NCBI GenBank assembly: GCA_021791915.1
Contig: JAJYVQ010000003.1
Location: forward strand, 1 to 42,450
Reading direction: 5' to 3'
Length of the DNA: 42,450 bases
Origin: Actinomycetes bacterium
GTDB taxonomy: Bacteria; Actinomycetota; Acidimicrobiia; Acidimicrobiales; JABEUL01
Shown: positions 1,324 through 41,903 of the stretch, piece by piece
Numbering within the stretch: position 1 is the stretch's first letter
Layout of the letters: every line of letters starts with the position of its first letter
Notes under the pieces: generated by a model
What the model saw: only the letters and a program-made list of their open reading frames with translations
Databases searched by the model: none
What the model was told of the DNA's origin: nothing
Program-made: the position numbers and the translations under genes

Positions 1324-1401
1324 ATATATATTCTCCTATATTTACATTGAAGGTGTAAGCTTTTTGGTGTAGGTTCAAGTCCAACAGACATGTTATAACA
1401 A

Positions 1402-1551
1402 ATGATTAGACAATATAACTATCCCCTTTGTACAACTAGAAATCAAGTAGTTAAGGTAAATCACATGCTTGCAATCCTATTGCTTAGTAGGCAGTGTGTA
1501 CTGTCTAATGCAATACCTGTAGAAAGCATTGGATCAAATTGACCCAATACC
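1402..1551 (+). mobile_element. Internally deleted relic of the TIR-bounded TnpB element (tnpB 5' end joined to right TIR)
   Basis: 1402-1474 aligns ungapped to the tnpB start at 22966-23038 (60/73 nt, 16/24 aa). 1531-1551 ggatcaaattgacccaatacc matches the right end 24145-24165 at 20/21 nt. The micro-ORF 1402-1542 (46 aa) stops at the same TGA inside the TIR. Confidence 0.88.
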
Positions 1552-2270: not shown

Positions 2271-3628
2271 CTGACGTTTTACATGTAGATATGGATGCCT
2301 TTTTCGCTTCGGTCGAAGTGAAAGACAATCCAGAATTGAAAGGAAAGCCAGTCATAGTAGCTGGTCTTTCCAAAAGAGGAGTGGTTGCTGCTTGCACCTA
2401 TGAGGCTAGGATATTTGGGGTACGATCTGGAATGTCAACTTTGATGGCAAAAAGACTTTGTCCAGACGGAATGTTTGTGGGCGGAAGATATAGTAGATAT
2501 GTTCAGATAAGCAAACAGCTGGAAGAAGTATTAATTAGTTTCAGCCCTTATGTTGAGTTCGTTTCCTTGGACGAGGCATTTGTTGACGTTACCAAAAGTC
2601 ACAGACTTTTCGGTTCAAATAGAAAAATTGCCGAATTGATAGTGGCTAAAGTTGCCAATGAGCTGGATCTAAATTGCTCGGTTGGAATCGGATCTTCTAA
2701 ATTAATTGCCAAAATTGCTTCAAAAAAGGCCAAGCCGAATGTTATAGCTTCGACCAAAGAAATTGTTTTAGGCACGAAGATTTTTGAGGTTGAAAAATCT
2801 TCCGAAATTGAATTTATTTCAGATCTGGAATTGAAAGAGATCTGGGGGATAGGGCCCAAAACCGTTGCAAAACTAAATTCATACGGAATCTATCGTGTAA
2901 AAGATTTAAAGAAAATCGACGATGAAGTTTTAGTGAGATTAGTAAAATCCGCAAATGCAAAGTGGTTAAGTGATATCTTAAATGCCGAAGATTCTCGGAA
3001 GGTTGCCGTTGAAAGAGTGACAAAATCGATTTCGGTTGAAGCAACTTACGAAAATGATTTAACTACCCCACAGGAAATTTTTGCTGAAATCCCCAGAATG
3101 GTTGACAGTGTAGTGACAAGACTTAAGTCACAGAACTTCCTTGTTAAAACTGTAACTGTAAAACTTAAAGACAAAAATTTTAAAATAATTACCAGATCTC
3201 AAACTTTAAATCTGGCTACTGATGATATTTTTAAGATTTATGAAGCAAGCAAAAATATTTTAGAAAGATATATGGAGGTAACCGAAAGGCACCCAAAAAA
3301 TGCTTTTGTAAAAGATCCTACCTTGTTGGATGAGAATAAAATGGCCCAAGATGGATTGTTACAGTCGAATCCGAACAAATCAAAATCCAGTATGCCCAGA
3401 AATGAAGTTCCTTTGGCAATAAGGTTGGTTGGAGTTTCTCTATCTAATTTGGTTGTAGCCGACCAGTCTAATCAGTTAGGCCTATTTGATGAAACGGAGG
3501 TTAGTAAATTGACCGAAGTCATATATAACGTAAAAAATAGATTCGGACCTAACTCAATTGCGCCAGCAAGTTTAATCAAAGACGGTGAATTAATAGTTAA
3601 AACTCGAGGGGATGCGCAATGGGGGTAG
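2267..3628 (+). CDS. dinB: DNA polymerase IV (Y family)
   Basis: HVDMDAFFASVE, CTYEAR, SLDEAF, IWGIGPKT, KSISVEATY, IRLVGV; GTGA overlap with the upstream gene. Confidence 0.95.
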   Translation: MTDVLHVDMDAFFASVEVKDNPELKGKPVIVAGLSKRGVVAACTYEARIFGVRSGMSTLMAKRLCPDGMFVGGRYSRYVQISKQLEEVLISFSPYVEFVSLDEAFVDVTKSHRLFGSNRKIAELIVAKVANELDLNCSVGIGSSKLIAKIASKKAKPNVIASTKEIVLGTKIFEVEKSSEIEFISDLELKEIWGIGPKTVAKLNSYGIYRVKDLKKIDDEVLVRLVKSANAKWLSDILNAEDSRKVAVERVTKSISVEATYENDLTTPQEIFAEIPRMVDSVVTRLKSQNFLVKTVTVKLKDKNFKIITRSQTLNLATDDIFKIYEASKNILERYMEVTERHPKNAFVKDPTLLDENKMAQDGLLQSNPNKSKSSMPRNEVPLAIRLVGVSLSNLVVADQSNQLGLFDETEVSKLTEVIYNVKNRFGPNSIAPASLIKDGELIVKTRGDAQWG

Positions 3629-3734
3629 AGGTCAATCTAAGTCTAAATCAGCTCGTTGTAACGGTATCAAATGTGAAATAATAGTTATCCAAACATCTCT
3701 CGGCCACCTAATCTAAAAAAGGTATTTTGTATCA

Positions 3735-3837
3735 TGTGCCTAATAGATTGTGCCTAATAGATTCTTACTTATAGATTATTACTTATAGATTATTACTTAT
3801 AGATTATTACTTATAGATTATTACTTATAGATTATTA
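3735..3837. repeat. 14-bp tandem array (2 x tgtgcctaatagat, then 5 x t[c/a]ttacttatagat)
   Basis: Read directly; intergenic between dinB and the DUF3040 gene. Confidence 0.97.
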
Positions 3838-4126
3838 TCGTGGACAGTTTAGATATTGAACGTTTACACCATAAAATATTTGCCCACGATAAGAAATTAT
3901 AGTAATTTCTGAGTTTTTTCCGTTGACATTCAATTTAATATTGAGCTAAGCTAATTAATAGTTTGAACTAAGCTAAGGGTACAGCAGAAAAAAAGATTAG
4001 TTGCAGATTGACAATTTTAGTGCTTTAGATTCGGTTAAAATAACCGATTGTTAACTATAAAACTTAAATAAAATATATTTATATGCGATAAAAATTTAAG
4101 TCAAATTTCAAATATAATTATAGAAG

Positions 4127-4501
4127 ATGCCTTTATCAGAAGAAGAACAAAGAATATTGCATGAGATGGAGCAGAGGCTCTATGCTCAAGACAAAGAGTT
4201 GGTCGAGAAGGTTACTTCAAGTTCAGTTTATAAGTATGCGGGTAAATCTACTCTTTTGGGAGTTATAGGAGTACTGGTGGGTTTAACGGACTTGCTTGTG
4301 ATGCTATCTAAATCGATCCCCCTTTCCTTTTTGGGATTTGTAATCATGTTTGGGTCAGCACTATATATTGAACGAAATCTTAAGCGTATCGGAAATGCCA
4401 GTTGGTATGATGCTAACAAGACCTTGAAGAATTCTGGTTTACCTGAAGCGGTAAATGAGATGAAAAATAAGTTTAGAGGCAAGTTCAATCGAGATCTTTA
4501 G
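4127..4501 (+). CDS. DUF3040-family membrane protein
   Basis: N-terminus MPLSEEEQRILHEMEQRLYAQD followed by two hydrophobic helices, typical of this actinobacterial family. Confidence 0.88.
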   Translation: MPLSEEEQRILHEMEQRLYAQDKELVEKVTSSSVYKYAGKSTLLGVIGVLVGLTDLLVMLSKSIPLSFLGFVIMFGSALYIERNLKRIGNASWYDANKTLKNSGLPEAVNEMKNKFRGKFNRDL

Positions 4502-22183: not shown

Positions 22184-22852
22184 TCAGTCTGTTACATATA
22201 TAATGCCATCTGAAATAGCGAGATTTAGCTGTGTTAAGTTTGACGAAGCTGGACCTGATATAACTTGTCCAGTACTTAAGTCAAATTGTGATCCGTGACA
22301 AGGGCACTGAAAAATGGACTGTGACAGGTAGGGCTGAACCGTACATCCGGCATGAGGACACACAGCGTCAAAGGCAACAAATTTATTTGAAGAGAGGTGT
22401 AGAACATATGCAGGATCGCCCGAGATTGGGTCTGTAAAAGCCGCAATTTTTCCGATGGCTACCTGAGATGCTGGTCCAATCTCGGAACCAGAAACTGTCG
22501 TCTGAGGGGTTTGCGTAGGCGTAGAAGTACTTGGTGACGTTGATCCAGTACCAGTTGAACTCGGGGCATGTGATTGATTAGAAAGATTTAAAGTGTTGGA
22601 TGTCTGAGGCGGTGTATTGCTGGACATTAATCGACCGAATATGAATGAACCACCCGCAATCAAAAGAGCTCCTACAGCCGTATAGACTGTGCTTGAAGTC
22701 AAAAATCTTCGTCGATCTAAATCTATCTGTCTGCTTCTGTACCTGATGTTTGAGCTCTTATTTATATTATTGGCATAGTTGATTAAATAGGTTTCCAAAG
22801 AAAATAGATTTTGACGTCCCGCAATTATAAGTGGGATCCATGCGAAGAAAAA
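22184..22852 (-). pseudogene. 3' part of interrupted DoxX/DoxD-Rieske fusion gene (RR-FL motif, TM helix, S/T linker, Rieske domain)
   Basis: FAWIPLIIAG continues the DoxX domain; DRRRFL; CPHAGC...CPCHGSQF Rieske motifs. Confidence 0.9.
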
Positions 22853-22965
22853 GGTAGCGGGTCAATTTGACAACAATCCCACCATCTGCGGTTGTAGCAC
22901 TTAAATTGTATAATAATAACAAGATATAAATGGTCCACTGCATAAATAGCCAACTAGAAGATACA

Positions 22966-24156
22966 ATGATAAGAACTTTTAAATATCCACTTTATCCAAC
23001 TAAAAACCAAGTAGTTAAGTTAAATCACCTGCTTGCAACTCAGTGCGAACTGTATAACGCTGTACTAGAAGAAAGAATAGGACTCTATAAATGGAATAAG
23101 AAATCAGTGTCTTATTTTGACCAATGTAAAACACTGTCTCAATTAAAAGAAGTTAGACCAGATATTACTCAATATGGTATAACTGTAAACAGAGGAACGC
23201 TACAAAGACTAGATAGAGCTTTTAAGTCTTTTTACAGAAGATGTAAAACAGGTCAAAAAGCAGGGTTTCCAAGGTTTAAGTCTTTAAGTAGATGGGATTC
23301 CGTTGAATACATGGATAAATCTGGATGGACGATAAAAGAACCTGAAAAAAGAATAAAACTGTTAGGTATTGGAGATATTAAAGTAAAATTCACCAGAAAA
23401 CTAAAAGGTCTACCTAAAAATATAGTCATAAAGAAGGTAAATGATAAAAAATGGTATATTTCTATAGTTTGTACAGATATTACCCCTGAGATATTACCTC
23501 AAACCAAGAACGAAGTAGGAATTGATTTAGGGGTAGTAAATCAGGTTACTTTAAGTAATGGAACCTTAATAGAGGGTCAGCGATTGCTACAGAAAAGCCA
23601 AGACAAGTTAACATATCACAGCCAAAAGTTAGCTAAATGCAAAAAAGGTTCAAATAGAAGAAAAAAGGTTAAACAAAACCTATCTACTGTTCATAGGAAA
23701 ATAACTAACCAGAGAAAAGATTTTAATCATAAAATAAGTAGAGAATTAATAAACAACTTTGATTTAATAGTTCACGAAGATTTAAATATTAAAAATATGT
23801 CTAAATCCAATAAAGGAACTGTAGACAATCCAGGAATTAATAGACAACAAAAGAAAGGTTTAAATAGATCAATATTAGATGCAGGCTGGAGTCAATTACT
23901 TCAATTCATGTACTATAAAGCGGAAGAAGCTGATAGAACAATTATTGCAGTAAATCCACAATATACATCACAAAAGTGTTCACAGTGTAAATATATTTCA
24001 AAACAGAACCGAACAACTCAAAACAAGTTTAAATGCATACAATGTGGATATTTAGAAAATGCTGATATAAATGCAGCTAACAATATTTTAGAGGCCGGTA
24101 GGGCCTTACAGGATAGAACAGATTTGTCTGTTTTAGAATGTGTAGGATCAAATTGA
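22966..24156 (+). CDS. tnpB: RNA-guided endonuclease TnpB (396 aa from the likely ATG at 22966)
   Basis: N-terminal RTFKYPLYPT HTH region, GFPRFKS, RuvC-I GIDLG, RuvC-II VHEDL, zinc ribbon CSQC/CIQC, RuvC-III ADINAA; catalytic D-E-D intact. Confidence 0.96.
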   Translation: MIRTFKYPLYPTKNQVVKLNHLLATQCELYNAVLEERIGLYKWNKKSVSYFDQCKTLSQLKEVRPDITQYGITVNRGTLQRLDRAFKSFYRRCKTGQKAGFPRFKSLSRWDSVEYMDKSGWTIKEPEKRIKLLGIGDIKVKFTRKLKGLPKNIVIKKVNDKKWYISIVCTDITPEILPQTKNEVGIDLGVVNQVTLSNGTLIEGQRLLQKSQDKLTYHSQKLAKCKKGSNRRKKVKQNLSTVHRKITNQRKDFNHKISRELINNFDLIVHEDLNIKNMSKSNKGTVDNPGINRQQKKGLNRSILDAGWSQLLQFMYYKAEEADRTIIAVNPQYTSQKCSQCKYISKQNRTTQNKFKCIQCGYLENADINAANNILEAGRALQDRTDLSVLECVGSN

Positions 24157-24165
24157 CCCACTACC
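24091..24165 (+). ncRNA. Putative compact omegaRNA scaffold overlapping the tnpB 3' end and right TIR
   Basis: Stem-loops gaggcc-GGTAG-ggcctt (24091-24107), tagaacaga-tttg-tctgtttta (24114-24135) and ggatca-aat-tgaccc (24145-24159); terminal CTACC (24161-24165) is complementary to the first loop. Position matches known TnpB omegaRNAs, but expression is not shown. Confidence 0.45.
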
Positions 24166-24605
24166 AAGAAAAACACTATATCTGATCCAGTAAAGTATGG
24201 ATTTGAATGAAAGCTAACAGTCAAAAATAGCGACAAAGATATCAATAAGCCTCCAACGGCGGCGATTCTTGAAAAAAGTCCGATTATAGTACCAATTCCT
24301 ACTGACAACTCAGCTAGTGCAATTATAAAACCGATAAGACCCGCATAAGAGTGAAGTGGAATGAGAAAAGAACCGATGGGAGAATGATGCGAATATGCTT
24401 TAAACTGTTGTTGAATTGAGATCGGACTGTTGGGATTAAAAAATGCTGGGTTGGCCAATTTTTGTAGTCCCGCAAATATGAAAGTAATCCCTAAAAAGAC
24501 CCTTAGCGGTAGAATTGAGTAATCAAAACGGTCATATCCTTGACGATTTTGTGATCGCTCTTTAGTATCTGACAATTTATAGATATCATAGTTAGAATCT
24601 GACAT
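24166..24605 (-). pseudogene. 5' part of interrupted DoxX/DoxD-family membrane protein gene
   Basis: PLRVFLGITFIFAGLQKLANP...ELSVGIGTIIGLFSRIAA...FHSNPYFTGSDIVFF. The listed ORF 24018-24605 reads on into the inserted element, so its C-terminus is artefactual. Confidence 0.9.
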
Positions 24606-39729: not shown

Positions 39730-41341
39730 CCTAGATCCACCGAAAAATTACCAATTTAGCAATAATTTTATCGGCACGAATACACTAAAATGCCCTTCTG
39801 GCCTAGTAAAATTGGTGTATGAACAATACAAAAAAACTTAGCCAAAAGGACACCTTATTAGTGTCACCATCTTACCACAAGTCCTCCAAGTTTTCAGTTA
39901 TATTTGATGATAAAAAAAGTGCATCATATGCGGGGCTACATTTAGTAAATGATTTTGCCACAAAACTTCAACTAATTGATCTAGCAGATCAGATTATTGA
40001 TTTAGGTGATGCTCCAGGTAGACCTAATCCAGGTAGGAAAATAATGACTTTAATAGAGTCATTTATAGTAGGGGGAGACTGCATTGACGATGCCGATGTA
40101 TTACGATCTGGCTGTAGTGAAAAGCTGGTTGACCATAAAGTTATGGCTCCTTCTACCTTAGGTACTTTTCTTAGATCATTTAGTTACGGTAATGTAAGAC
40201 AATTAGATAAATTATTCTCTGAACTCTTAAAAAAAGCTTCTGGCTTTGGAATCTTACCAAAAGATGAAGATATTACAATAGATGTCGATTCAACGATATG
40301 TGAGCTATACGGTAAAAACAAAGAAGGGGCAAGTTACGGTTATACAAAAGTATTGGGACTCCATCCTTTAATAGCTACCCTCGGTAAGGCAGGAGATATT
40401 GTACATGTCAGAAACAGAAGAGGATCAGCCCACAGTGGGAGAGGATCGGCTTACTTTATAACTGAAACTATCAACAGATTAACAAATGTAGGATGTACTT
40501 CTAATATCACATTAAGGGCTGATTCTGGCTTTTATTCTAAACACGTAATTAAAGCCTGTAGAGATAAAGGCGTTAACTACTCCATTACAGCTAAGTTAAC
40601 AGGTTCTGTTAAAAGAGCAATTGAATTAATAGATGAAAGTAACTTTGTTGAAATTGACTATACCCTAAACGGTAAAGCTTATGTTGGAGAAACTACCTAC
40701 GGTGACAATCACAGACTAATAGTTAGAAGAACCAAGATTACAGGAGATCAAGCCGATCTATTTGACAATTGGCAATATCACGCATTTATTACTGATTTAA
40801 AAGGTGACAAAGTGAAATTAGACGCATATCACAGAGATCATGCAACAGTTGAATTAAATATTAAAGATTTAAAAGAAAATGTAGGGTTAAATCATATGCC
40901 ATCTGGTAAATTTGCAGCTAACAGTGCATGGCTTGTAATCGCTGCTATGGCATATAACTTCATGATTTGGATGAAAAGAATAACTGATGATAAACGAATT
41001 ACAGCTAAAAGTTTCAGAAAGATGTTTATATTATTTGCTGGAAGAATTACCAAAAAGGCTAGAACATATATTCTTCACTTACCCCATAAATGGCAATATC
41101 AAAAACAGTGGATTAAAACCTTAAATGCCATCCAACTGCTCACTATAAAAACATAGAAATATACTATCTTAAGGCAGCCCCCAATTTTCAACCGGCGCCT
41201 TCGACTCAAATAAACAAATCAAAACTTCTGATAGAACACGTACCAATTTCAACAGTTATATACCAAAACTGAATTTCCCAATACGACACAGTCATTTTTT
41301 GATAATTTTAGTATTACTAATGATTTTTCGGTGGATCTAGG
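39730..41341 (+). mobile_element. Complete IS1380-family insertion sequence (1612 bp)
   Basis: Terminal IR cctagatccaccgaaaaat at 39730 and its inverse ending at 41341; the CCTAGAT start resembles ISEcp1-type ends. Flanks are tttagttaaa / tttagttaca. Confidence 0.92.
39819..41156 (+). CDS. IS1380-family DDE transposase
   Basis: SYAGL, GGDCIDDADVLR, APSTLGTFLRSF, IDVDST, YGYTKVLGLHPL, LRADSGFY, HRDHATVELNIKDLK, FAANSAWL. Confidence 0.95.
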   Translation: MNNTKKLSQKDTLLVSPSYHKSSKFSVIFDDKKSASYAGLHLVNDFATKLQLIDLADQIIDLGDAPGRPNPGRKIMTLIESFIVGGDCIDDADVLRSGCSEKLVDHKVMAPSTLGTFLRSFSYGNVRQLDKLFSELLKKASGFGILPKDEDITIDVDSTICELYGKNKEGASYGYTKVLGLHPLIATLGKAGDIVHVRNRRGSAHSGRGSAYFITETINRLTNVGCTSNITLRADSGFYSKHVIKACRDKGVNYSITAKLTGSVKRAIELIDESNFVEIDYTLNGKAYVGETTYGDNHRLIVRRTKITGDQADLFDNWQYHAFITDLKGDKVKLDAYHRDHATVELNIKDLKENVGLNHMPSGKFAANSAWLVIAAMAYNFMIWMKRITDDKRITAKSFRKMFILFAGRITKKARTYILHLPHKWQYQKQWIKTLNAIQLLTIKT

Positions 41342-41791
41342 TTTAGTTACACCTGGGGGAATCAAGTCAGAAGAGCTACATTGAGAACTCCGTAATCCTT
41401 TCAAGTCTATCATAAATTGCCTAATTTCATTAATCTGTTTTTGAACTTGATCTATTACTACAGACTTAACTGTCTTTAGAGTCCTATTTACTGTACTTTG
41501 AACAGCATTGCCGACACATCCTATCCAAGTCAAAGGGTCTCCGTTACATTGGTGCTTCCCACTTGGATCCCAGCCATTGACAGGATTATCCCCTGAAACT
41601 ATAGGAACTGACGCATATTTGGTTGAACTAGTAGTAGTTTTTGGCCTTTGAGCAGGTAAAATATAACAGAAATTAGCAGTTAAAAGGGAGGGGTTACAAA
41701 AAAAGCGGGAATATGCGTTTTTTGAAGTTGAAGTTGAAGTCGTACCAGTTAATTCTGTTTGATTTTTAAGTGAAATTGAAAGTGTTTTCAC
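41342..41791 (-). pseudogene. Orphan RHS-type C-terminal tip (core-end motif plus variable domain), truncated by IS1380
   Basis: GDNPVNGWDPSG (41558-41593) matches the NP..xDPxG end of RHS repeat-associated cores; no YD repeats upstream; the last 30 aa of the listed ORF are IS sequence. Confidence 0.6.
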
Positions 41792-41903
41792 GACTGAAAT
41801 TTTAACATAGGACTTGGATTTATTTTAGAATCTCATTGGAATAGAATATTTTCTAAACATAATTTAAGTTTTAAAGTATAGCGGAAATGTTATTTACTTG
41901 GTT

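What the first reader, a model, noticed from the sequence alone, without database searches (positions are those of the whole stretch)
22845..24173. TnpB RNA-guided nuclease carried by a TIR/TSD (DDE-type) transposable element
Seen in the sequence: an intact tnpB fills ~91% of a 1313-bp unit with 18-bp terminal inverted repeats (17/18), a perfect 8-bp TSD (aagaaaaa), no transposase, and a stop codon inside the right TIR. Established: bacterial TnpB normally travels in IS200/IS605 (Y1 HUH; subterminal hairpins, no TIRs, no TSD) or IS607 (serine recombinase; no TSD) elements, whereas capture by TIR/DDE transposons is mainly known for eukaryotic Fanzors. Inference: this is a bacterial non-autonomous TnpB element mobilised in trans by a DDE transposase. 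The GGnAGTG terminus and 8-bp TSD resemble IS256/ISH6 (Mutator-like) or IS6 ends. A second diverged copy (1402-1551) shows it is a family. It poses a mechanistic puzzle: in IS605 the TnpB TAM equals the transposase target motif, but a DDE element duplicates its target, so this TnpB may have a relaxed TAM or a different role.
Basis: partly seen in the sequence, partly recalled or inferred. Interest (0 to 1): 0.92.

Follow-up and report, generated by a model that had tools for sequence, protein, structure and literature searches.

The report
TnpB nuclease riding IS1-type transposon ends
A 1.3-kb mobile element whose only gene is the RNA-guided nuclease TnpB has the inverted ends and 8-base target duplication of IS1-family cut-and-join transposons, so a borrowed transposase most likely moves it; I found no paper describing this TnpB carrier.

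Summary
Window 22853-24165 is a 1313-bp element with 18-bp inverted ends (17/18) and an intact tnpB whose stop codon lies in the right end. It is flanked by a real 8-bp target duplication. A same-genus genome has the uninterrupted DoxX-Rieske gene with one AAGAAAAA.

The inference of a DDE-type carrier holds, but the proposed families (IS256/ISH6/IS6) do not. The same inverted repeat (GGTAGTGGGTCAnTTTGA), always with 8-bp duplications, bounds IS1-family elements elsewhere. Two of these are plasmid copies annotated 'IS1 family transposase'. Of 120 loci carrying that repeat, 39 carry the transposase and none carries tnpB.

The right end also forms the last hairpin and pseudoknot strand of a conserved guide-RNA-like fold. 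TnpB relatives at 47-68% identity keep these ends.

TnpB-bearing copies have a G just outside the left duplication in 10 of 11 cases, against 8 of 27 IS1-type elements without tnpB. This may be a TAM.

Weak points: no genome I sampled holds both the transposase and this TnpB clade, and this genome's family is decaying. Prokaryotic TnpBs between inverted repeats of DDE transposons were already described in 2023, so this is a new variant of a known kind, not a new kind.

The parts
22845..22852 (.). Left copy of the 8-bp target-site duplication (aagaaaaa). The base just before it (22844) is G.
   Evidence: The empty site in G003 has one copy.
22853..22870 (.). Left terminal inverted repeat GGTAGCGGGTCAATTTGA, of the IS1-type GGnnnTG kind.
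   Evidence: It matches 17/18 the TIR of IS1-family elements.
22871..22965 (+). Leader between the left TIR and the tnpB start. No function assigned.
   Evidence: No convincing sigma-70 match on the + strand.
22966..24156 (+). tnpB, 396 aa (408 aa from the alternative ATG at 22930). The RuvC D187/E271/D367 motifs and two CxxC pairs are intact. The last codons (S-N-stop) are encoded by the right TIR.
24092..24106 (+). Stem-loop 1 of the putative omega-RNA: AGGCC[GGUAG]GGCCU. The loop GGUAG is at 24097-24101.
   Evidence: Covariation in 3 of 5 pairs across 12 copies and relatives.
24145..24165 (+). Terminal hairpin GGAUCAAAUUGACCC plus tail CUACC (24161-24165), which can pair with the GGUAG loop as a pseudoknot. 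This is the putative 3' end of the omega-RNA scaffold.
   Evidence: 92% of cells paired, and 0 of 500 shuffles reach the observed covariation score. The pseudoknot pairs are nearly invariant, so they are consistent with the fold but not proven.
24148..24165 (.). Right terminal inverted repeat TCAAATTGACCCACTACC.
24166..24173 (.). Right copy of the 8-bp target-site duplication.
24166..24185 (+). Flank that would be read as the guide if the scaffold ends at the element boundary (aagaaaaacactatatctga). This is an inference.
   Evidence: By analogy with IS200/IS605 TnpB. Not tested.
22184..24605 (-). Interrupted host gene, a DoxX(DoxD)-Rieske fusion. The N-terminal part is 24605-24166 and the C-terminal part is 22852-22184.
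1401..1551 (+). Internally deleted remnant of a diverged family member: the tnpB 5' end joined to a right TIR (TCAAATTGACCCAATACC, 1534-1551).

Best explanation
The element is a transposase-less member of an IS1-family lineage of DDE transposons. Its only cargo is a TnpB/omega-RNA module.

Shown:
- It inserted into a DoxX-Rieske gene with an 8-bp staggered-cut footprint.
- Its 18-bp ends are the ends of IS1-family elements that encode a single-ORF IS1-like transposase.

Inferred:
- Such a transposase, supplied in trans, binds the two TIRs and moves the unit. IS1 chemistry is copy-and-paste or cointegrate.
- TnpB is an active RNA-guided nuclease. Its omega-RNA ends exactly at the right TIR, so its guide is read from the flank, starting with the duplicated 8 bases.
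- The G just outside the left duplication acts as a minimal TAM-like mark of the unoccupied site. At the occupied right junction that position holds the terminal C of the TIR, which would spare the element's own junction.

In this genome the family looks stranded. There is one intact copy and about ten broken ones, and no cognate transposase was detected.
For: 1. True TSD and empty site.

2. More TSDs in other copies:
- C6, aagttaag.
- C143:37426, caattagt/caattatt.
- G005:C98 (TnpB 68% identical), caaaatag/caaaataa.
- P0195 lineage (48% identical), tgaaatcg.

3. The exact TIR pattern found at least 120 loci in viral contigs.
- 39 of them hold an IS1-like transposase beside the TIR, and none holds tnpB.
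- 27 distinct TIR pairs have 8-bp TSDs, 25 of them perfect. Eleven carry the transposase and 16 are MITE-like.

4. Identity of the transposase:
- Pfam DDE_Tnp_IS1 scores 26.8 bits against a cut-off of 24.1.
- NCBIfam transpos_IS1 gives E = 1.2e-15.
- Homologues at 56-60% identity are annotated 'IS1 family transposase' on plasmids. One is Mesorhizobium loti CP050295.1, with the TIR 18/18 at both ends and TSD cgctggtg. Another is Acidiphilium multivorum NZ_CP041717.1, with TSD aagccgag.

5. ISfinder's IS1 definition (ends GGnnnTG, direct repeats of 8-9 bp, DDE) is quoted in PMC10425158 and PMC6807381. It fits GGTAGTG and 8 bp.

6. The IS1-like transposase occurs in 8 of 401 genomes of the same order. 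One is G252, a TIR pair with TSD gggcgtcg.

7. TnpB is intact. The 3' fold is conserved with covariation.

8. G at position -9 occurs in 10 of 11 TnpB-bearing copies, against 8 of 27 IS1-type elements without tnpB. On the 10 copies scored, Fisher p = 0.002 (9/10 against 8/27) and binomial p = 3e-6 against this genome's G content. The P0195 copy, seen in the same call, adds an eleventh copy with G. The flank after the right duplication shows no complementary C.
Against: - No genome in my sample holds both partners. The IS1-like transposase is absent from this MAG (local tblastn) and from G001-G007. The eight Acidimicrobiales genomes that have it lack this TnpB clade.
- No element with the transposase and tnpB in cis was found.
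- MAGs lose repeats and plasmids, so absence is weak evidence, but trans-mobilisation remains an inference.
- The Pfam IS1 score is only just above its cut-off, and the NCBIfam score is below its equivalog cut-off. This is a distant IS1 branch.
- The pseudoknot pairs hardly vary, so covariation does not prove them.
- The G/CAA target signature could instead be the target preference of the unknown cognate transposase. n = 11 left flanks, several from related genomes.
- No RNA data exist for this organism. All sequencing runs found are DNA.
Confidence: 0.72

Rival explanations
1. The carrier is an IS1595-family element. Earlier notes of this scan concluded this for look-alike tnpB-only elements in other genomes. 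An IS1595 transposase would move it.
For: - IS1595 elements also make 8-bp TSDs; the copy at G005:C62 has TSD aaatataa.
- They occur in the tnpB-bearing genomes G004, G005 and G000.
- One IS1595 end (G005:C68, ACGGGCTAGTCATTTAGCTCCTCC) matches the TnpB right end at 14 of 24 positions in register.
- NCBIfam gives the partner transposase a weak IS1595 hit, E = 3e-4.
Against: - Every IS1595 copy whose ends I could define has different termini: AAGGGCTTTC.., ACGGGGTAGCG.., TATCCCTGTT...
- The exact 18-bp TIR is found around transposases that score best as IS1. NCBIfam gives E = 1e-15 for IS1 against 3e-4 for IS1595. Pfam DDE_Tnp_IS1 is above its cut-off, and no Pfam IS1595 hit appears. PGAP annotates them as IS1 family.
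Confidence: 0.08
2. It is an ordinary IS200/IS605 (IS1341-group) element moved by a Y1 TnpA. The 'TIR' would be two similar subterminal hairpins and the 'TSD' a coincidence.
For: - Both ends contain a small palindrome (GTCAATTTGAC and GGATCAAATTGACCC) near the tip, as IS605 ends do.
- The nearest TnpBs outside the clade (38-42% identical, from Deinococcus and Mycobacterium) are IS605-type. One lies next to an IS200/IS605 tnpA.
- Metagenomic relatives at 30-40% identity have hairpin ends without TSD.
Against: - The non-palindromic outer six bases (GGTAGY / RCTACC) are inverted as well.
- Five independent copies have 8-bp duplications of different sequence.
- The empty site has one copy of the 8-mer.
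- The same ends bound DDE-transposase elements and MITEs down to 36 bp.
Confidence: 0.02
3. Two separate things are nested. A canonical tnpB unit sits inside an older IS1-type MITE, and only the MITE shell is mobile. The tnpB module would keep its own inner ends.
For: - Empty MITEs with the same TIRs exist, from 36 bp to 2.6 kb: G113's 40-bp unit, G389's 225-bp unit, and 16 in viral contigs.
- As an account of how the fusion arose, capture of a tnpB unit by a MITE is plausible.
Against: - The tnpB stop codon and the last hairpin and tail of the conserved RNA fold lie inside the right TIR. No room is left for a separate right end.
- Relatives at 47-68% identity in other families keep tnpB flush with the same TIRs.
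- No inner hairpin/TAM junction was seen.
Confidence: 0.05
4. The element is a dead relic. tnpB survives by chance or has been recruited for a host function, and the target-site signature reflects old transposase preference, not TnpB activity.
For: - The genome has one intact copy against about ten fragments.
- No transposase was found in this or sister genomes.
- Many clade members are single-copy and sit at fixed sites between housekeeping genes across samples.
Against: - The catalytic motifs and zinc-finger cysteines are intact.
- The insertion is young enough that the TSD is perfect and a same-genus genome is empty.
- Metagenome contigs show further insertion sites of the same family.
Confidence: 0.13

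Closest known systems
DDE-transposase-associated TnpB branches (DDE-1 to DDE-6) and solo TnpBs with the same ends (Altae-Tran et al. 2023, PNAS, PMC10691335)
   Same: A prokaryotic TnpB lies between inverted terminal repeats of a DDE transposon. The tnpB 3' end lies within 250 bp of the transposon end. Solo TnpBs are inferred to be mobilised in trans.
   Different: The only partner named in that text is IS630. A 2026 review (PMC13565253) lists ISL2, IS630 and IS1031, all with 2-3-bp duplications. Here the ends are IS1-type with an 8-bp duplication, and no cis transposase was found. I could not see the paper's supplementary data, so membership in one of the six branches is untested.
IS1 family, single-ORF cargo-carrying relatives (for example the elements in Mesorhizobium loti plasmid CP050295.1 and Acidiphilium multivorum plasmid NZ_CP041717.1)
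   Same: The TIR matches 17-18 of 18 bases and starts GGnnnTG. The TSD is 8 bp. The last codons of the end-proximal gene (S-N-stop) are encoded by the TIR.
   Different: Those elements carry an IS1-like transposase plus passenger genes (HTH/Peptidase_M78, restriction-modification genes and others). This one carries only tnpB and a guide-RNA-like fold. Its right TIR is extended into a hairpin.
Fanzor1 and Fanzor2* in eukaryotic TIR/TSD transposons (Bao and Jurka 2013, PMC3627910; Yoon et al. 2023, PMC10711439)
   Same: A TnpB-type nuclease is the cargo of a cut-and-paste-type transposon, often non-autonomous. The TIR is predicted to be part of the guide-RNA scaffold.
   Different: This one is bacterial, and the TnpB is of the ordinary IS605-like type (about 40% identical to Deinococcus TnpBs). 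In Fanzors the TSD is reported as part of the scaffold. Here I cannot tell whether the 8-mer is guide or scaffold.
IS1341-group (tnpB-only) members of IS200/IS605
   Same: They are tnpB-only, about 1.3 kb, and the protein family is the same (NCBIfam IS200_TnpB 230 bits, below that model's cut-off).
   Different: IS200/IS605 elements have no TIRs and make no TSD (PMC13565253, PMC3119063). This element has both.

Membership tests
TnpB (RNA-guided endonuclease, OrfB_IS605) | OrfB_IS605 (RuvC) plus zinc-ribbon TNB domains | tested here: met
   Pfam PF01385 86.9 bits, PF07282 73.1 bits, PF12323 26.8 bits. NCBIfam guided_TnpB 274.5 bits against a cut-off of 100.
TnpB (RNA-guided endonuclease, OrfB_IS605) | Intact RuvC D-E-D triad and CxxC..CxxC | tested here: met
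   GIDLG (D187), HEDL (E271), NADINAA (D367), and C338/C341/C357/C360. All are conserved in the 68%-identical relative. Residues were assigned by motif, not by structure.
TnpB (RNA-guided endonuclease, OrfB_IS605) | An omega-RNA overlaps the 3' end of the gene and ends at the element boundary | tested here: inconclusive
   A conserved fold with covariation in stem 1 and the terminal hairpin. No Rfam match. No RNA runs available.
TnpB (RNA-guided endonuclease, OrfB_IS605) | TAM-dependent RNA-guided DNA cleavage | not testable with these tools
   Indirect only: G at -9 in 10 of 11 copies.
IS200/IS605 (IS1341 group) | No terminal inverted repeats and no target duplication; insertion 3' of a TAM | tested here: not met
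   18-bp TIR and a proven 8-bp TSD.
IS200/IS605 (IS1341 group) | Mobilised by a Y1 (HUH) TnpA | not tested
   No tnpA lies in the element. I did not search the genome for Y1 genes. The footprint makes the question moot.
IS1 family (as carrier) | Ends GGnnnTG with terminal inverted repeats | tested here: met
   GGTAGCG / GGTAGTG. The definition is quoted in PMC10425158 and PMC6807381.
IS1 family (as carrier) | Direct target repeats of 8-9 bp | tested here: met
   8 bp in five tnpB copies and in 27 elements with the same TIR.
IS1 family (as carrier) | Encodes an IS1-family DDE transposase | tested here: not met
   None in this element or genome. It is met in elements with the same TIRs elsewhere. 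The element is therefore a non-autonomous derivative, not an IS1 in the strict sense.
IS1595 family (as carrier) | The TIRs are shared with IS1595 transposase-bearing copies | tested here: not met
   IS1595 copies in G000, G004, G005 and G013 have other termini.
IS256, ISL3, IS6 (as carrier) | The TIRs are shared with those transposases | tested here: not met
   IS256 ends ..TGTGTAAACAC. ISL3 ends GGGCCTTCAGGC.. and GGCTCTTCTGGC... No IS6 in this bacterial family.
DDE-associated TnpB branches of Altae-Tran et al. 2023 | Position in their TnpB tree (DDE-1 to DDE-6) | not testable with these tools
   The supplementary files are not held.

The most novel reading that the evidence does not exclude
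A large, mainly actinobacterial TnpB clade has fused the 3' end of its guide-RNA scaffold (last hairpin plus pseudoknot strand) to the transposase-binding inverted repeat of IS1-family transposons. RNA-guided homing would thereby be refitted to a transposon that duplicates its target. The guide would begin with the duplicated 8-mer. The TAM would shrink to a G just outside the duplication. The terminal C of the inverted repeat would mark 'occupied' and so protect the element's own junction.
Probability: 0.35. Interest if true: 0.8.

Novelty: new variant of a known kind. Interest (0 to 1): 0.6.

Why it matters
TnpB is the ancestor of Cas12 and a compact genome editor. Its biology has been worked out for IS605 and IS607 carriers, which excise without a scar and do not duplicate their target.

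A carrier that duplicates 8 bases raises a clear, testable question: how does the nuclease tell an empty site from its own junction? The copies found here offer a concrete answer to test (G versus the terminal C of the repeat).

The finding also adds IS1, a classical and well-studied family, to the short list of DDE partners of prokaryotic TnpB. It shows that one 18-bp sequence may serve both as a transposase binding site and as part of a guide-RNA scaffold.

For annotation, it explains a class of tnpB-only 'IS1341-like' genes that have inverted repeats.

Tried and rejected
1. Partner search by TIR in this genome found only tnpB copies and chance matches.

2. Partner search by TIR in 401 genomes of the order found mostly chance hits in high-GC genomes, plus two MITE-like units.

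3. IS1595, ISL3, IS256 and IS6 were tested as partners by Pfam searches of eight related genomes and by reading the ends of each copy. All have other termini or are absent.

4. A TIR pair 3.1 kb apart in G004:C178 encloses an IS1595 fragment. It has no TSD, and the fragment has its own unrelated ends, so this is a coincidence.

5. Relatives from genome contigs and metagenome contigs (30-40% identical) have no TIR or TSD. They have IS605-like hairpins.

6. The context of eight clade members from the protein collection (P0121, P0181, P0167, P0231, P0151, P0195) shows no neighbouring transposase.

7. Rfam finds no family.

8. Metagenome contigs laid on the locus show extra insertion sites. They show no empty-site or circle junction.

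9. An AT-rich IS1-like element laid on the same runs gave nothing.

10. No co-occurrence of the IS1-like transposase and this TnpB clade was seen in any sampled genome.
Full report
**What is there.**
- Window 22853-24165 is a 1313-bp unit. Its ends are inverted repeats, GGTAGCGGGTCAATTTGA and TCAAATTGACCCACTACC, matching 17/18. The motif is far over-represented in the window: 3 matches against 0.06 expected.
- An intact tnpB (22966-24156, or from the ATG at 22930) fills 91% of the unit. Its TGA stop lies inside the right repeat.
- The protein is a standard TnpB. Pfam finds OrfB_IS605, Cas12f1-like TNB and HTH domains. NCBIfam guided_TnpB scores 274 bits. The D-E-D motifs and four zinc-finger cysteines are intact.
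- The unit is flanked by aagaaaaa on both sides.

**The duplication is real.**
- The element splits a minus-strand gene.
- A genome of the same genus (G003, contig 98) aligns without a gap across the joined flanks. It has a single AAGAAAAA inside an intact DoxX-Rieske fusion ORF.
- Deleting the element plus one repeat copy from the window restores the same 366-aa ORF, with DoxD/DoxX and Rieske domains.
- This rules out IS200/IS605 (Y1) and IS607 (serine recombinase) chemistry. Neither makes target duplications (PMC13565253; PMC6188088 abstract).

**It is a family.**
- The 2.59-Mb MAG is a low-GC member of the Acidimicrobiales, according to earlier notes and the names of related proteins. It holds 14 BLAST matches to the element, and only the window copy is intact.
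- C6:27457-28558 is an internally deleted copy with the perfect TSD aagttaag.
- C143:37426-37720 is a MITE-like derivative with caattagt/caattatt.
- Window 1401-1551 is a remnant.
- A 68%-identical TnpB in another genus (G005:C98) has the same ends and the TSD caaaatag/caaaataa.
- TnpBs at 46-49% identity keep recognisably the same ends: G007, and the lineages of P0181, P0167 and P0195 from peat and other metagenomes. P0195 has the perfect TSD tgaaatcg.
- Relatives at 30-42% identity do not have such ends. They are IS605-like, with hairpin ends, and one lies next to an IS200/IS605 tnpA. So this is a sub-clade that arose within ordinary IS605-type TnpBs.

**Whose ends are they?**
- I first tested the transposases present in this and sister genomes. 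These were three kinds of IS1595, two kinds of ISL3, and IS256. All have other termini, and IS6 is absent.
- The answer came from an exact-pattern scan of the viral-contig collection. At least 120 loci carry GGTAGYGGGTCANTTTGA.
- 39 of the 120 have, next to the repeat, a 280-300-aa single-ORF transposase. None has tnpB.
- In these loci and a few others fetched later, 27 distinct repeat pairs are flanked by 8-bp duplications, 25 of them perfect.
- Eleven of these carry the transposase, usually with passenger genes such as an HTH/Peptidase_M78 protein. Sixteen are MITE-like, as short as 36 bp.
- The transposase hits Pfam DDE_Tnp_IS1 just above its cut-off, and NCBIfam transpos_IS1 at E = 1e-15.
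- Its homologues at 56-60% identity on plasmids of cultured bacteria are annotated 'IS1 family transposase'.
- In Mesorhizobium loti plasmid CP050295.1 the element has the repeat 18/18 at both ends and the TSD cgctggtg. In Acidiphilium multivorum plasmid NZ_CP041717.1 the TSD is aagccgag.
- ISfinder's definition of IS1 (ends GGnnnTG, direct repeats of 8-9 bp, DDE, copy-and-paste or cointegrate) is quoted in two papers. It fits GGTAGTG and 8 bp.
- The same transposase occurs in 8 of 401 genomes of this order. One is a repeat pair with the TSD gggcgtcg.
- In both kinds of element the end-proximal gene finishes with S-N-stop encoded by the repeat.

**The right end also forms RNA structure.**
- I aligned the last ~87 nt of 12 copies and relatives.
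- They share a stem-loop AGGCC[GGUAG]GGCCU, with compensatory changes in three of five pairs. They also share a terminal hairpin (GGGUCA..UGACCC) and a tail, CUACC, that is complementary to the GGUAG loop.
- Overall 92% of cells pair, and no shuffle of 500 reaches the observed covariation score.
- The pseudoknot pairs barely vary, so they are compatible with the fold but unproven.
- The layout matches what is expected of a TnpB omega-RNA whose scaffold ends at the element boundary. It means the 18-bp repeat is at once the putative transposase site and the 3' end of the scaffold.

**A target-site signature specific to the tnpB-bearing elements.**
- In 10 of 11 left flanks, the base just 5' of the duplicated 8-mer is G. 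The flanks come from this genome, G005, G006, a metagenome contig and the P0195 lineage.
- 8 of 19 duplications start with CAA(A/T).
- The base after the right copy shows no complementary preference.
- In the 27 IS1-type elements without tnpB, G stands there in only 8.
- The test covered ten copies: Fisher p = 0.002 for 9/10 against 8/27. The P0195 copy, seen in the same call, makes it 10 of 11.
- One reading: G is a minimal TAM-like mark of the empty site. At the occupied right junction that position holds the terminal C of the repeat, which would protect the element from its own nuclease.
- The other reading: the unknown cognate transposase has this preference. I cannot separate the two readings.

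**Weak points.**
- No genome I sampled holds both partners, and I found no cis arrangement. Trans-mobilisation is therefore inferred from shared ends and footprint.
- MAGs often lose repeats and plasmids, and the transposase is common on plasmid or virus-like contigs. Absence is therefore not strong evidence.
- In this genome the family looks stranded and decaying.

**Novelty.**
- Prokaryotic TnpBs between inverted repeats of DDE transposons, including solo TnpBs with the same ends, were described by Altae-Tran et al. 2023.
- A 2026 review names ISL2, IS630 and IS1031 as the partners.
- I found no paper that links TnpB with IS1.
- Earlier notes of this scan report many look-alike elements and assign them to IS1595. 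For this element my tests favour IS1.
- I rate it a new variant of a known kind.

Noticed in passing
window 39819-41156 (+): A 445-aa DDE transposase (Pfam DDE_Tnp_1_4, 165 bits). It is repeated elsewhere in the genome; contig C53 matches 1000 bp at 92.6%. Several contig ends match window 41100-41830. It is unrelated to the tnpB element.
   Followed up: partly
L252 (GCA_027390165.1, DAHYGF010000010.1) 2880-4240: In a closely related assembly, one contig joins the left junction of this genome's C6 copy (TSD aagttaag) to the right junction of the window copy (aagaaaaa), through a full-length tnpB that is 94% identical. This is either recombination between two copies or an assembly chimera across the repeat.
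   Followed up: partly
L314:6179-6214; G113:C25:8218-8257 (L085): These are minimal mobile units made of nothing but the two IS1-type inverted repeats. One is 36 bp with no spacer and the other is 40 bp with a 4-bp spacer. Each is flanked by an 8-bp duplication.
   Followed up: no
L392 (G050:C144) 3091-3134: A right end and a left end of IS1-type elements lie head to tail, separated by exactly 8 bp (gcgctcgg). This could be a tandem insertion, or a junction like those of transposition intermediates.
   Followed up: no
G005:C40:155-1612 (L202): A 482-aa restriction-modification-type ORF ends with ..INSN-stop inside a solo copy of the inverted repeat. The repeat seems to supply the gene's last codons.
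   Followed up: no
G000:C1:1-1000; L235:1398-2446: This genome's only IS1595-family transposase (285 aa) is cut by a contig end. The complete copy in a sister assembly has weak ends (TATCCCTGTT..). Its closest relatives are in Saccharimonadales/Patescibacteria, which suggests transfer between phyla.
   Followed up: partly
L253, L262, L402, L409 (metagenome contigs): Clade members at 47-49% identity sit as single copies at fixed intergenic sites between housekeeping genes (dapA/dapB, pnp, holB/tmk, amtB). The same sites recur across many samples, so these copies look long fixed, not recently mobile.
   Followed up: partly
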